A DNA stretch of 64,000 nucleotides from the human T2T-CHM13v2.0 reference genome, Homo sapiens: the NCBI RefSeq assembly GCF_009914755.1, contig NC_060939.1; one strand, written 5' to 3'. Positions 1 through 46,506 of this stretch are shown here, piece by piece; position 1 is the stretch's first letter, and each line of letters opens with the position of its first letter. The notes beneath the pieces were generated by a model. It worked only from the letters and a program-made list of their open reading frames with translations. It ran no database searches and was not told where the DNA came from. A program made the position numbers and the translations under genes.

Positions 1-4407
<4,407 letters not shown>

Positions 4408-4495: not shown

Positions 4496-5099
4496 CTACA
4501 TTAGAAAGAGAAGTTAATATGCTACACAATCTATCTAAACTTATTTTATAAAAACGAAATGAAAAAAAATTTAGCAAACCTCAAGCCTCAAGACATTAGA
4601 ATTGCCAGTCATTTCATCAACCGACTTCAAAAATGAGCAATTAAACTACACGAAAGAGTGAGAGAAACTTTCAGGGGAAAAAAATCATTAGGTATCAAAA
4701 TCGCAAGGAGTTTTAAATTCTACCGTGTCAAGATAATTAAATATCACATCATACTGGCCAAAAATCCAAATATGTTCTATTGCAGAAAAGTTGCTAGCTA
4801 CTAAAGTAAATAACTAAAAAGAGTTTTCCTAGTTTCTGTAATGCAAACTTACTGCTCCTCTGCTACAATTCCAACGCTCACTCAAACCAGAAAGCTAATC
4901 AGGAAAGAAAAAGTAATTATTGCGCTGATGCAAAAACTAAAAGCCTAGTGGAAAACAAAAACTCTGTCACCCACCCATCAACTCCCACTACCAATTCCCC
5001 CTCAAGATGGGGAAGAAACGGTTGGGCACAATTAAACGGTAACTTCGCAGAAGTCACCAAAGTAACCATTCCCTCTGAGGCCAAGAAATGCACACGCTC

Positions 5100-6130
5100 A
5101 CCATGGCTAAAGGCTGGGGAGCCAGCGCCTCCCAGGTCTCCGCGATCGCCCTTGGGAGGCCGCGCCGGCCGGCCGCAACCCTCGCAGCCTGGCGGGGACG
5201 TCCCGGGGAGGCGGAGGCACGCTGGGCTGCGGTGGCCGGTCCCTCGCAGGCCCGGCCCGGCCCGGGGCGCGGGGCGGGGGCACCGCGGAAGGGTCCCCGT
5301 CCTCCACGCTCGCGGGAGCCGCCCCTGGCCTCCCTACCATGCCGTTCCGCAGGTCCCAGCGGCTGCGGGCAGCCGGAGGCTGCGGCGGAAGCGGGGCGCC
5401 GAGGCGCGGCCTAAGTTCCCCTTCCCGGTCCTTTCCGGTCCTCGCCGGGCCTCACCTGCTTGAGTCGGGAGATGAGCACGGTCTTGACTCCGGTGATGTC
5501 TAAGTTCCGCCGCTTCAGCTCGGACTTCAGATCGATGACCCGCAGATCGGTGATCTTTTTACCTTCCGCCTGACCCGAGGCGGCCGAGGCTGCCACCGCA
5601 CCGGTAGCGGCAGCCATCTTAGAAGAGCAGCGCGCTGCCGAGGCAGCGAGTGGGCTGCAGGGCGGCGGCAGCAGCGCCAACTTCCACCCAGGCCTCGGCG
5701 GCCGCCGGCGCCGCGCAGCGCTGCGCACAATGAGCCGCTGGCCCCTCCCCCGGTCCGCCACCCTAGCGCAACCTGCAGCAGCCGCCAGCACCCGGATGAC
5801 GGCCGCGCGTGCGCGTTGGCGCAGGGACCGGCAGCGGCGCGCTCGGTCGAGCGGGCCGCGGCCACTTGGGCGGTGCGCTCCCTTGTGTGGACTGGGAGGT
5901 CGGGCACGTCCTACCGCAGCAACGTCCGCCGCGCCGCCGTTCTCTCGTCGCTTCGTTAGCCATTTTCTTGCAACGTCTTGAGTCTTGAGCAACAACGATG
6001 TGCGGGCACTGAATGACATAGTGCGCGCGTTACTCAACACAAACCGAGGGGGCGCGTGCGCGCGCTGAACCTCTCAAGGAAATACTTTATCAGTTCTGCT
6101 GAATAATCGAAAAATTGTCGCCGGTGTGCA
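5100..6130. promoter_or_regulatory. SLTM: SLTM CpG island / promoter and 5'UTR (TSS probably near 5730, minus strand)
   Basis: Very GC- and CpG-rich. NRF1-type GCGCGTGCGC at 5804-5813 and 6052-6061. YY1-type GCCATNTT at 5613-5620 (over the ATG) and ~5959-5966. GC boxes. Confidence 0.9.
5456..5617 (-). CDS. SLTM: SLTM coding exon 1 (54 codons; N-terminus and SAP domain)
   Basis: Translates [54 protein letters not shown], a SAF-B-family SAP motif. ATG at 5617-5615 in AAGATGG context. Phase-0 donor CAG|GTGAGG, with GT at 5455-5454. Confidence 0.96.
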
Positions 6131-7004: not shown

Positions 7005-9170
<2,166 letters not shown>

Positions 9171-10731: not shown

Positions 10732-11588
10732 GGAGTCTCACTCTGTCTCCCAGGCTGGAGTGCAGTGCTGCGATCTTGGCTCACTGCAACCTCCACCTTA
10801 CGCATTCAGGTGATTCTCCTGCCTCAGCCTCCTGAGTAGCTGGGATTACAGGCGCACACCACGATGCCCAGTTAGTTGTATTTTTAGTAGAGATGGGGTT
10901 TTGCCATGTTGGCCAGACTGGTCCCGAACTCCTGACCTCGTGATCCACCCACCTGGGCCTCCCAAAGTGCTGGGATTACCGGCGTGAGCCACTGCACCCA
11001 GCGAATATTTACTTTTCAACAGCAAAAAAGGAAATCAGAAGATAGCAGGTTGATGTCTTACCCATACTTAAATAAAATTATAGCTAATAGCAAATAATAA
11101 CTGAGGGAATTAACAATGGGTAGATCTTCATTAAAGGAAATACTAAATGATATCTTGAGAAAGAAGAAAATGATCACAGAAAGGTCAGAGATGCATGTCC
11201 TAATTTCTAGGGTAGTCACTAGTCAAATATTAAAAGACTCTATAACTTTCAAACTAAGATTAAAAAAATCCTCCAGAGAACAAGACAGAAGAGGGGACAT
11301 AGAATCAGTGGGATAATAGAAAGCATGCTGTAAGATAAACATTTAAAAACAAACATAAAAGCAATTACATTAAAGATTAATGGGTTAACTATTCCAGGTA
11401 AAAGATAATTGTCAGTCCAGAAGTTTTTTAACTAGTTAGAAGAACACATTTAAGAAATATACAAAAATGGGCCAGGTGCAGTGGCTTACACCTGTAATCC
11501 CAGCACTTTGGGAGGCCGAGGCAGGCGGATCACGAGGTCAGGAAATCGAGACCATCCTGGCTAAGATGGCGAAACCCCGTCTCTACTA

Positions 11589-12482: not shown

Positions 12483-13535
12483 AGTTGCTTTGGGCAAGGA
12501 TTTCATGACCAAGAACCCAAAAGCAAATGCAATAAAAACAAAAATAAAGAGTTGAGACTTAATTAAACTAAAGAGCTTTTGCACAGCAAAAGGAACAGTC
12601 AGCAGAGTGAATAGACAACCCACAGAGTGGGAGAAAATCTTCATAATCTATACATCTGACAAAGGGCTAATATCCAGAATCTACAAAGAACTCAAACAAA
12701 TCAGTAAGAAAAAAACAAACAATTCCATCAAAAAGTGGGCTAAGGACATGAATAGACAATTCTCAAAAGAAGATATACAATGGCCAACAAACATATGAGA
12801 AAATGCTCAACATCACTAATGATCAGGGAAATGCAAATCAAAACATCAATGCAATACCACCTTACTCCTGCAAGAATGACCATAATCAAAAAACGTCGGT
12901 GTTGGTGTGGATGTGGTGAACAGGGAACACTTTTACACTGCTGGTGGGAACGTAAACTATTACAACCACTATGGAAAACAGTGTGGAGATTTCTTAAAGA
13001 GCTAAAAGTAGAACTACCATTTGATCCAGCATTCCCAGTACTGGGTATCTACTCGGAAAAAAAGTCATCATATGAAAAAGATACTTGCACACACATATTT
13101 ATAACAGCACAATTCACAATTGCAAAATCATGGAACCAACCCAAATGCCCATCAATCAGTGAATAAAGAAACTGCAGTATATTTATATGATGGTCTACTA
13201 CTCAGCCATAAAAAGGAAAGAATTAACGGCATTTGCAGCAACCTGGATGAGATTGGAGACTATTATTTTAAGTGAATTAACTCAGGAATGGAAAACCAAA
13301 CATCGTGTGTTTTCAGTGATATGTGGAAGCTAAGCTATGAGGATGCAAAGGCATATACAATGGATTTTGGGAACTTGGGGGGAAGGGTGGGAGGGGTGCG
13401 AGGGATAAAAGACTACGAATATGGTGCAGTGTATACTGCTCGGGTGATGGGTGCAAAGAAATCTCACAAGTCACCATTAAAGAACTTATTCATGTAACCA
13501 CATACCACCTGTACCCCAATAACTTATGGGAAAGT
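12483..13535 (+). mobile_element. 5'-truncated L1PB-like LINE-1 (ORF2 C-terminus plus 3'UTR)
   Basis: ORF2-like peptides ([29 protein letters not shown]). 12-bp TSD aaaagttttgaa at 12471-12482 and 13536-13547. Confidence 0.9.
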
Positions 13536-35449: not shown

Positions 35450-38575
<3,126 letters not shown>

Positions 38576-38835
38576 CCTTGTTTTCTGTTCCATTGATTGC
38601 TACTTGTTTTTTTCTATCTGAAACTTTAAAATTTTACATTTGTTTCCAAAAGTAGAGTTCATATTATGTATAAGCATCATATAGAGGACATAAACATAAT
38701 ACAGACTTAGCAGCTGTTGGTCTGTATCAGTTTAACCCCTTCAAAATAAGTTTATCTATCAGCATGGTTGATGCCTCACAAACTTATTTTCTCTGTAAGA
38801 GAAAAGTTAACCTAATAACAAGTAACAAGTTAACG

Positions 38836-39975
38836 TTATTCTTTTCTATCACCTTCTTTCCCTGTCTCCAGTTCCTCTTCTCTGGTAATCCATATTCTTA
38901 TTTCAATGTGCACTTCTCAAAGAATTACTCATCATCCAGATCATCATCACTCATTCTACATCTTGGGGTAATTCTTGAGAGAGTTGTCATCATCCACAAG
39001 TGGCTTTGCTTTCTTCTTTCTCTTTTTCATTTGCTTTGTCAACTCAGCCAATTGTTCTTGCTCTTCTTTTGGCCACGCTGGGCTTATATTTCTAAATCCT
39101 TTCTCTTCCTTTTGTATCCCATGATTTGCTTGTTGAGCACCCCGTGATTGATTCCACATAGACCTGAGTGCACAGCAGATTCCATGGCATCAGATGACAA
39201 TGCACTGATCAGAGTCACAAGTTCCTTGAAATCATTTGGTATAAAGTCTTATTCATGTGATGGTCCACAGTCAACCATTGTCAGTAACTGATCAATCTCA
39301 GCTAGAGCTATATTTTGTTTGTCTTGAACAAACTGTATTGGCACCACATTACTCAAGATCTGTTGAGACATCAAAAGATGCTTCATTTGTACAGTGCTCT
39401 TCTGTAAGTTGGCTTCTGTGTGCTCATTCTGCTCAGCAAAAAGAGGTGTCTTCTAATATACATAGAAGGCTGAGAGGTCTAAAGTCAGAGATACCTTGGA
39501 AAGCTACAAATTCAGGTTATAGATATCTTGCTTCACATCGGAGGTGCACTGCAATTTGTGAATGCTTGACAGAGAAGGCCATCCAGGGTCCTTAAGCATA
39601 TGTGGTCTTCCTTAATTTTCTTTGAGGTATTCTTCATCAGGACTTCCAACTTAGATGGTTTGTAAGTAAAGTGAGATCGTAGAGAAAGAGCTTCAGACCA
39701 AAACATTATTTCTGACTGCTACTTTTCAAACTGTCAAGGTCATCAAAAACAAGGAAGGTCTGAGAAACTACCACCACCAAGAGGAGTCTACAATAAGACA
39801 TGACATTGAAATCTAATGTGGTATCTTGGATGGGATTTTGGTTTTTTGGCAAACTTCTTGAGCAAGTTCTTGTTGTCACAGGAGACAGAACGGCCATAGA
39901 GGCACCCAGCTTAGCTGCTGAGCAGTTGCCCAGGAACCAGTGGGAGTCCCCCTGCCCCTCAGTTGGGGACTACAT
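38836..39975 (-). pseudogene. Ancient processed pseudogene of RBFA (mitochondrial ribosome-binding factor A, C18orf22)
   Basis: Minus-strand pieces match recalled human RBFA in order and without introns. KNLLKKFA vs [42 protein letters not shown] vs [88 protein letters not shown] vs [72 protein letters not shown], and QLAELTKQMKKRKKKAKP. Contains stops and frameshifts. Confidence 0.9.
39712..39837 (+). mobile_element. Internal L1MC-type 3'-region fragment embedded antisense in the RBFA retrocopy
   Basis: aaactgtcaaggtcatcaaaaacaaggaaggtctgagaaact...gtggtatcttggatgggat resembles the recalled L1MC 3' consensus. No poly(A) and no TSD. Confidence 0.8.
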
Positions 39976-39979
39976 ACCT

Positions 39980-46506
<6,527 letters not shown>

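What the first reader, a model, noticed from the sequence alone, without database searches (positions are those of the whole stretch)
39712..39837. Possible fossil splice isoform: an exonised antisense-L1MC poison exon preserved inside the RBFA retrocopy
Seen: in mRNA sense (-) the retrocopy reads ...GCCAAAAAACCAA | AATCCCATCCAAGATACC...AGTAGCAGTCAG | AAATAATGTTTTGGTCTGAA..., a 126-bp L1 piece splitting FA..TK / KK.W. It has no poly(A), no TSD and no L1 3' terminus, so it does not look like a retrotransposition event. Recalled knowledge: the antisense L1MC consensus reads ...tttttctgttccag|GATCCCATCC...ACTGGTCAG|gtattt..., so the insert runs from a built-in 3' splice site to a built-in 5' splice site. 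I also recall an RBFA exon1/exon2 junction in phase 2 at about this lysine codon. Inference: the retrotransposed mRNA was an alternatively spliced RBFA transcript that included an L1MC-derived cassette exon from intron 1. In frame it reads K-I-P-S-K-I-P-H-stop, i.e. a poison/NMD exon. The pseudogene would then record an ancestral and perhaps extinct splicing event of a mitoribosome assembly factor.
Basis: partly seen in the sequence, partly recalled or inferred. Interest (0 to 1): 0.85.

Follow-up and report, generated by a model that had tools for sequence, protein, structure and literature searches.

The report
Retrocopy preserving a repeat-derived RBFA exon
An old dead copy of the RBFA gene keeps a 126-base extra exon that was spliced out of a LINE repeat in the gene's first intron, a neat but not unprecedented fossil of an alternative, protein-truncating transcript.

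Summary
On the minus strand the RBFA retrocopy reads exon 1, then 126 extra bases (window 39712-39837), then exon 2.

The interpretation also holds. In the parent gene (chr18) exon 1 ends in phase 2 at the predicted lysine codon. Intron 1, between exons 1 and 2, holds the homologous repeat piece in the same orientation. That piece is 114 nt, has AG directly before it and GT directly after it, and lies inside a repeat more than 1 kb long. The insert's ends coincide to the base with those AG and GT positions.

- **Second retrocopy.** A copy on chrX joins exon 1 directly to exon 2.
- **Clock.** The insert's private divergence (10.5%) matches that of the retrocopy body (12.2%).
- **Reading frame.** The exon carries an in-frame stop in the retrocopy, in today's gene, and in 26 of 29 other genomic copies.

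Four things are not shown:
- sequence kinship between the insert and the intron copy beyond family membership;
- the L1MC name;
- any RNA or cross-species evidence;
- regulation or selection of the exon.

The idea that retrocopies record unannotated splice forms is already in print (PMC7692494). This is a new member of a known kind, of moderate interest.

The parts
39838..39975 (-). Exon-1-derived part of the RBFA retrocopy, from the ATG homolog to the last base of exon 1. It lies outside the RefSeq pseudogene annotation.
   Evidence: Aligns to L001:1063-1220 (70.5% over 132 aligned). BLAST block at 39888-39838 matches gene 1175-1220. The sequence is shown.
39712..39837 (-). 126-nt repeat-derived cassette exon. 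It is antisense to a LINE-like element and was captured from RBFA intron 1 by splicing. It carries an in-frame stop at codon 9.
   Evidence: Homologous to L001:1901-2014 (74.3% over 113 aligned). Its ends coincide with AG| and |GT in the intron copy.
38614..39711 (-). Remainder of the retrocopy: exons 2-7 and the 3' UTR down to the parent's poly(A) site. RefSeq LOC100420929 covers only 38845-39700.
   Evidence: Exon blocks are colinear with the parent gene without introns. The 3' UTR homology to the parent and to the chrX copy reaches about 38614.
38603..38613 (-). A-rich remnant (a run of 7 A) directly after the 3' UTR homology. Probably the decayed poly(A) tail.
   Evidence: Sequence. The position is read from the printed strings. 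The tail reading is an inference.

Best explanation
The chr15 pseudogene is an L1-type processed retrocopy of an alternatively spliced RBFA mRNA.

An old LINE-like repeat (L1 by recall) sits antisense in RBFA intron 1. In that orientation the repeat family carries a pyrimidine tract plus AG, and about 125 nt further on a CAG|GT. In the germ line of an early placental-mammal ancestor, the spliceosome used these two sites and included the segment as a cassette exon between exons 1 and 2. The mature transcript was then reverse-transcribed and inserted on what is now chr15.

The exon introduces an in-frame stop far upstream of the last exon junction. The isoform could therefore encode only a truncated peptide of about 60 residues, and it would be a target of nonsense-mediated decay.

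- **Shown:** the junction positions, the orientation, the splice dinucleotides, the stop codon and the matching divergence.
- **Inferred:** that splicing, and not a DNA-level event, placed the piece there; the age; and NMD sensitivity.
- **Open:** whether inclusion was regulated or was splicing noise. I consider noise or low-level inclusion more likely.
For: 1. **Junction.** The insert lies exactly between the last base of exon 1 and the first base of exon 2.
2. **Source in the parent.** Intron 1 holds the homologous piece at L001:1901-2014, in the same orientation, between exon 1 (ends 1220) and exon 2 (starts 3233), flanked by AG and GT.
3. **Only an internal piece is present.** Repeat homology in the intron runs from about 1693 to 2960, while the retrocopy holds only the AG-to-GT piece.
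4. **Built-in splice sites.** AG precedes the segment in 25 of 29 other copies, and both AG and GT are present in 15 of 29.
5. **Control copy.** The chrX retrocopy LOC100420872 joins exon 1 to exon 2 directly. This shows what the canonical junction looks like in a retrocopy.
6. **Clock concordance.**
   - Private changes of the insert are 10.5% (range 0.056-0.134 over 29 triplets), against 12.2% for the retrocopy body.
   - Private changes of the intron piece are 17.2%, against 17.9% for the parent mRNA.
   - Insert to intron piece is 74.3% identical, against 69.0% for the retrocopy to the spliced parent.
7. **Stop codon.** There is an in-frame stop in the insert (codon 9), in today's intron piece (codon 28) and in 26 of 29 other copies, 23 of them at codon 11.
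8. **No local donor.** No other copy of the segment occurs in the 64-kb window.
Against: - Sequence similarity does not single out the intron copy as the source.
  - The intron piece ranks 29th of 30 for the insert, and the insert ranks 12th of 30 for the intron piece.
  - The two share only 2 rare variants, a tie with five other copies, while L019 shares 3.
  - This is what one expects if the repeat was young when the retrocopy formed, but it adds no positive support.
- No RNA evidence for the exon was available.
- No other mammal could be examined.
- The poly(A) tail and target-site duplication of the retrocopy are degenerate.
- A 52-aa exon-1 protein query found no short isoform in named sources. 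The length window of that tool makes this a weak negative.
- Retention of AG and GT in today's gene is no more than neutral decay allows, since 15 of 29 unrelated copies keep both.
Confidence: 0.9

Rival explanations
1. The piece entered the retrocopy after integration as a DNA-level event, such as capture of a repeat fragment at a break or a truncated retrotransposition. Its position at the exon junction would then be a coincidence.
For: Sequence similarity gives no specific link between the insert and the RBFA intron copy. The insert's private divergence of 10.5% is slightly lower than the body's 12.2%, though within sampling noise for 112 sites.
Against: This needs three coincidences:
- insertion at 1 of about 1,360 positions, exactly the exon 1/2 junction;
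- fragment ends that fall exactly on the AG| and |GT positions of the repeat;
- a parent intron 1 that happens to carry the same segment in the same orientation.

The piece also has no poly(A), no duplication at its flanks and no repeat terminus.
Confidence: 0.03
2. The reverse transcriptase switched templates twice during retrotransposition, copying a stretch of an unrelated RNA that contained the antisense repeat.
For: Template switching by LINE reverse transcriptase produces chimeric retrocopies (established knowledge, recalled). No call here supports it.
Against: It requires two switches that land precisely on an exon junction and on splice-site-bounded ends. It also leaves unexplained why the parent's own intron 1 carries the segment.
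Confidence: 0.02
3. The splicing origin is the same, but the exon was and is a regulated poison exon that tunes RBFA dosage by splicing-coupled decay, maintained by selection. It would not be noise.
For: - The isoform was abundant enough in the germ line to be retrotransposed.
- AG, GT and 16 pyrimidines in the 20 nt before the AG survive in a fast-evolving intron.
- The in-frame stop is present in every version examined except 3 of 29 unrelated copies.
Against: - The intron piece is no better conserved than its repeat flanks. The ratio of intron-to-copy identity over copy-to-copy identity is 0.89 in the exon piece, against 0.92-1.10 in the five flanking bins. This measure is biased by how the copies were chosen.
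- The piece lost about 11 nt relative to other copies.
- 15 of 29 neutral copies also keep both splice dinucleotides.
- A single retrocopy can arise from a rare transcript.
Confidence: 0.12

Closest known systems
Retrocopies as records of unannotated or ancestral splice forms of their parent genes (MIR302CHG retrocopies, PMC7692494; also Shemesh et al. [quoted passage not shown]
   Same: An exon absent from the canonical transcript is inferred from its presence, bounded by exon junctions, in a processed retrocopy. PMC7692494 (passages read) did exactly this for exon E302, and then found junction reads.
   Different: Here the extra exon is repeat-derived and truncates the protein, and only one retrocopy carries it. 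No RNA confirmation was possible. I saw only the title of Shemesh 2006 in reference lists. The paper is not held, so its content is recalled.
Exonization of intronic LINE-1 in antisense orientation (PMC2176070; PMC2394776)
   Same: Intronic L1 copies supply both splice sites of a new cassette exon. For PMC2176070 I saw the search listing and the start of the abstract: active mouse L1s carry conserved functional splice sites on the antisense strand. For PMC2394776 I read passages: L1 contributes exons, mostly from antisense copies, because antisense insertions prevail in introns.
   Different: Those surveys use present-day ESTs and mRNAs. Here the only witness is an old retrocopy. The element is an old, long-inactive family, and its subfamily was not determined.
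Poison (NMD-targeting) cassette exons
   Same: The exon carries an in-frame stop and lies upstream of five further exon junctions.
   Different: Classical poison exons are conserved and regulated. No excess conservation was seen here, and NMD sensitivity was not tested.

Membership tests
Processed (L1-mediated) retrocopy | Exons joined without introns, colinear with the parent mRNA, at a locus unlinked to the parent | tested here: met
   Seven exon blocks are colinear with chr18 RBFA, 69.0% identical over 1178 aligned sites. The parent is on chr18 and the copy on chr15.
Processed (L1-mediated) retrocopy | 3' poly(A) tail and target-site duplication | tested here: inconclusive
   A run of 7 A follows the 3' UTR homology. 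One weak 23-25-nt similarity between the two flanks (score 7.5) was found, with no clear duplication.
Transposable-element exonization (cassette exon from an intronic repeat) | The exon lies wholly inside a repeat copy in an intron of the gene | tested here: met
   L001:1901-2014 lies inside repeat homology spanning about 1693-2960 of intron 1. 15 of 31 family queries hit it at E<1e-6.
Transposable-element exonization (cassette exon from an intronic repeat) | AG and GT directly flank the exon in the genomic copy | tested here: met
   cccag|GTGCCC...GGTCAG|gtgctt. The junctions are gapless.
Transposable-element exonization (cassette exon from an intronic repeat) | The exon is seen in a mature transcript | not testable with these tools
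   The only witness is the retrocopy. Reads and chr18 transcript annotation were not available.
Poison exon / NMD isoform | An in-frame premature stop more than about 50 nt upstream of the last exon junction | tested here: met
   The stop is at codon 9 of the insert and at codon 28 of today's piece. 26 of 29 other copies have an in-frame stop. Exons 2-7 follow. The 50-nt rule is established knowledge.
Poison exon / NMD isoform | Conservation or regulation of inclusion; transcript stabilised when NMD is blocked | tested here: inconclusive
   There is no excess conservation of the exon piece over its repeat flanks (a biased sample). NMD was not testable.
LINE-1, subfamily L1MC, antisense | Many copies with a common 3' terminus and variable 5' truncation (the LINE hallmark), with the insert on the opposite strand | tested here: met
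   Left ends cluster at -195 to -232 in 20 of 29 rows. 7 more run into an Alu in the reference flank (my inference), and 2 differ. Right ends are spread from 111 to 1070 or more. T-rich runs precede the common end in many copies.
LINE-1, subfamily L1MC, antisense | Homology to L1 ORF2 upstream of the 3' region; match to the L1MC consensus | tested here: inconclusive
Pfam gave 0 families for 9 and for 5 pieces. PDB gave 0 for 2 pieces. The Atlas gave no usable hit. No repeat library was at hand.

The most novel reading that the evidence does not exclude
The repeat-derived exon in RBFA intron 1 (T2T chr18:80311852-80311965) may be a roughly 100-million-year-old poison exon that still works. On this reading it sets the dose of a mitoribosome small-subunit assembly factor by splicing-coupled decay, and it was included at substantial levels in the ancestral germ line. 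The retrocopy would then date the origin of that regulatory switch.
Probability: 0.12. Interest if true: 0.6.

Novelty: new member of a known kind. Interest (0 to 1): 0.4.

Why it matters
The finding gives dated physical proof that a repeat in RBFA intron 1 was recognised as an exon in the germ line of an early placental mammal. A decay-prone, protein-truncating isoform was captured by retrotransposition.

It also points to a concrete, testable exon in the living gene. Its splice sites are intact, and RBFA is needed for mitochondrial ribosome assembly.

It corrects the annotation of LOC100420929, which omits the exon-1 part, the extra exon and the 3' UTR.

The principle itself is established: retrocopies record splice forms, and LINE copies can become exons. 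The value is that of a clean worked example, not a new mechanism.

Tried and rejected
1. **Kinship by similarity.** Pairwise identity ranks and shared rare variants did not single out the intron copy. I kept this as a neutral result.

2. **First per-exon identity script.** It used a faulty end-gap setting and spread exons across the retrocopy. Its figures are discarded, and one search replaces them. One search printed only exon-border sequence.

3. **Naming the repeat.** The following all gave nothing:
   - ORFs of L004 and L033;
   - Pfam on 9 and on 5 pieces;
   - PDB on 2 pieces;
   - the Atlas on 1 piece.

   Pieces that I recognise by recall as ORF2-like lie 1.7-2.2 kb on the 5' side of the L1 segment (element sense) in L035, but no tool confirmed that.

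4. **Protein search with exon 1 (52 aa), looking for short isoforms.** It found no candidate.

5. **Selection on the exon.** The windowed conservation test showed no excess.

6. **Literature.**
   - (RBFA plus splicing terms) listed 15 of 1,700 papers, and none contained RBFA.
   - (RBFA, splicing, intron) found 23 papers and listed 15. None is about a human RBFA isoform, judging by title and abstract start.
   - (RBFA, transposable element, exon) found 1 paper, on cotton.
   - I therefore found nothing in print on this exon. Supplementary tables of exonization surveys are closed and could list it.

7. **Local donor.** The window holds no other copy of the segment.

Full report
**What is in the window.** On the minus strand, window 39975-38614 is an intronless copy of RBFA mRNA. 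It reads ...gccaaaaaaccaa, then 126 extra bases (39837-39712, aatcccatcc...agcagtcag), then aaataatgttttgg.... RefSeq annotates only 38845-39700 as pseudogene LOC100420929. The exon-1 part, the extra piece and most of the 3' UTR lie outside that annotation.

**The parent gene.** RBFA lies at chr18:80310952-80327167, and I fetched it as L001 and L002.
- BLAST of the retrocopy against the gene gives colinear exon blocks.
- Reading the gene gives these coordinates in L001:
  - the ATG is at 1063;
  - exon 1 ends at 1220 (AA|gtaatg, phase 2);
  - exon 2 is 3233-3275 (43 nt);
  - exon 3 is 3895-4071;
  - exon 4 is 5067-5179;
  - exon 5 is 8700-8784;
  - exon 6 is 10777-10850;
  - exon 7 runs from 12340 to the poly(A) site near 12945.
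- The extra piece therefore sits exactly between the last base of exon 1 and the first base of exon 2.

**The source of the extra piece.**
- The same BLAST placed part of the insert at L001:1953-1997, inside intron 1 and on the same strand. A local alignment extends this to insert 4-110 against L001:1904-1997.
- The gene reads ...ttccttggttctgcctgctgtccgttcctgtcccag|GTGCCCACCC...GGTACTGGTCAG|gtgctttg.... This is a 114-nt piece (1901-2014; chr18:80311852-80311965). AG lies directly before it and GT directly after it, behind a tract with 16 pyrimidines in 20.
- A virtual transcript of exon 1 + this piece + exon 2 + exon 3 aligns with the retrocopy end to end, with no gap at either junction.
- Repeat homology in the intron is much longer than the piece, about 1693 to 2960 when compared with 29 other copies. 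The retrocopy holds only the AG-to-GT part.

**The repeat family.**
- The insert found 1041 first-look candidates in the genome. 40 were scored, and the 39 other than the insert itself are 78-84% identical.
- I compared 29 of them with 1.5-kb flanks. L005 and L006 are a duplicated block, so 28 are independent.
- AG directly precedes the segment in 25 of 29. GT follows it in 15 of 29. Both are present in 15 of 29.
- The copies share a common end about 195-232 nt to the left of the segment in 20 of 29 rows. Of the other rows, 7 run on into an Alu of the reference copy (my inference), one ends at -136 and one at +6. On the other side the copies stop at scattered places, from 111 to 1070 or more. 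T-rich runs precede the common end in many copies.
- This is the pattern of a LINE seen from its antisense strand.
- I could not confirm 'L1' or 'L1MC' with a tool. Pfam, PDB and the Atlas gave nothing for translated pieces, and no repeat library was available. Those names are recall.

**A control copy.** A second RBFA retrocopy lies at chrX:94166269-94167170 (LOC100420872). It joins exon 1 directly to exon 2, and the insert finds nothing in it. The canonical form was therefore also retrotransposed. The extra exon was either alternative, or the chrX copy predates the repeat.

**Clocks.**
- Identity to the spliced parent is 69.0% for the chr15 copy (1178 sites) and 70.1% for the chrX copy (1102 sites). 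The two copies are 72.4% identical to each other. The insert is 74.3% identical to the intron piece (113 sites).
- In a three-way alignment of 1072 ungapped sites, private changes are 12.2% for chr15, 11.0% for chrX and 17.9% for the parent.
- In triplets of insert, intron piece and each of the 29 copies, private changes are 10.5% for the insert and 17.2% for the intron piece.
- The insert has thus aged like the rest of the retrocopy, and the intron piece like the rest of the parent locus.
- From recalled neutral rates, a branch of 11-12% or more suggests an age near the radiation of placental mammals. This is an inference.

**What did not help.**
- Similarity does not mark the intron copy as the insert's nearest relative. 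The intron piece ranks 29th of 30 for the insert, and the insert ranks 12th of 30 for the intron piece.
- The two share 2 rare variants, which equals five other copies and is one fewer than L019.
- This fits a repeat that was still close to its source sequence when the retrocopy formed, followed by fast change at the parent locus. It is not positive evidence.
- The case rests on position, orientation, exact ends and the clock.

**Coding consequence.**
- In the exon-1 frame the insert reads K-I-P-S-K-I-P-H-stop, and today's intron piece reaches a stop at codon 28.
- 26 of 29 other copies have an in-frame stop, 23 of them at codon 11. The usual length is 125 nt, which would also shift the frame.
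- The ancestral exon therefore almost certainly truncated the protein after about 60 residues. With five exon junctions downstream, it would qualify for nonsense-mediated decay. That rule is established knowledge and was not tested here.

**Regulated or noise?**
- The exon piece in today's gene is no better conserved than its repeat flanks. The ratio is 0.89 in the exon piece, against 0.92-1.10 in the flanking bins. The copies were chosen for similarity within the segment, which biases this test.
- The piece has lost about 11 nt.
- Keeping AG and GT is no more than half of the neutral copies manage.
- I therefore treat regulated use as possible but unsupported, at about 0.12.

**Rivals.** A later DNA-level insertion, or double template switching, would each need three coincidences: the exact junction, the exact splice-site-bounded ends, and the matching repeat in the parent's intron 1. 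No other copy of the segment occurs in the 64-kb window, nor in about 140 kb of held sequence. I give the two rivals about 0.05 together.

**Comparison with what is known.**
- PMC7692494 (passages read) inferred an unannotated exon of MIR302CHG from retrocopies and then found junction reads. It is the closest precedent.
- Shemesh et al. 2006 is cited for the same idea. I saw only its title in reference lists, and the paper is not held.
- Antisense L1 splice sites and L1 exonization are described in PMC2176070 (search listing and abstract start) and PMC2394776 (passages).
- Searches for RBFA with splicing or transposable-element terms found nothing on this exon. Supplements were closed.

**Verdict.** This is a new member of a known kind. 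Interest is 0.4.

Noticed in passing
window 38603-39975 versus RefSeq LOC100420929 (38845-39700): The pseudogene annotation is truncated at both ends. It omits the exon-1-derived 138 nt, the 126-nt extra exon, and about 230 nt of 3' UTR plus an A-run.
   Followed up: yes
L034 (chrX:94164800-94168700), match at about 1470-2575: A second, independent RBFA retrocopy (LOC100420872) of similar age. It is 70.1% identical to the parent and 72.4% to the chr15 copy, and it has the canonical exon 1-exon 2 junction.
   Followed up: yes
L001/L002 (RBFA, chr18:80309952-80328167): The functional parent has changed more than either dead copy: 17.9% private changes against 12.2% and 11.0%. Its private changes run 134 AT-to-GC against 35 GC-to-AT, and its mRNA GC content is 53.7% against 39-41%. 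This suggests strong GC-biased evolution at this subtelomeric locus.
   Followed up: partly
window 39976-40140 and 38560-38602: The sequence on both sides of the retrocopy looks, by recall only, like one older LINE coding region on the same strand, so the retrocopy may be nested in it. It is not in the masked-repeat list. A weak 23-25-nt similarity between the two flanks might be a decayed target-site duplication.
   Followed up: partly
L005 (chr10:38406517-38409623) and L006 (chr1:162141393-162144499): These two loci carry identical copies of the repeat segment and near-identical flanks. They are a duplicated block between chr10 and chr1, not two independent insertions.
   Followed up: no
L023:433-717 (+): A younger-looking LINE coding fragment (by recall) is inserted into the older repeat copy. 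This explains an 840-bp break in its colinearity with RBFA intron 1. Pfam found no family for it.
   Followed up: partly
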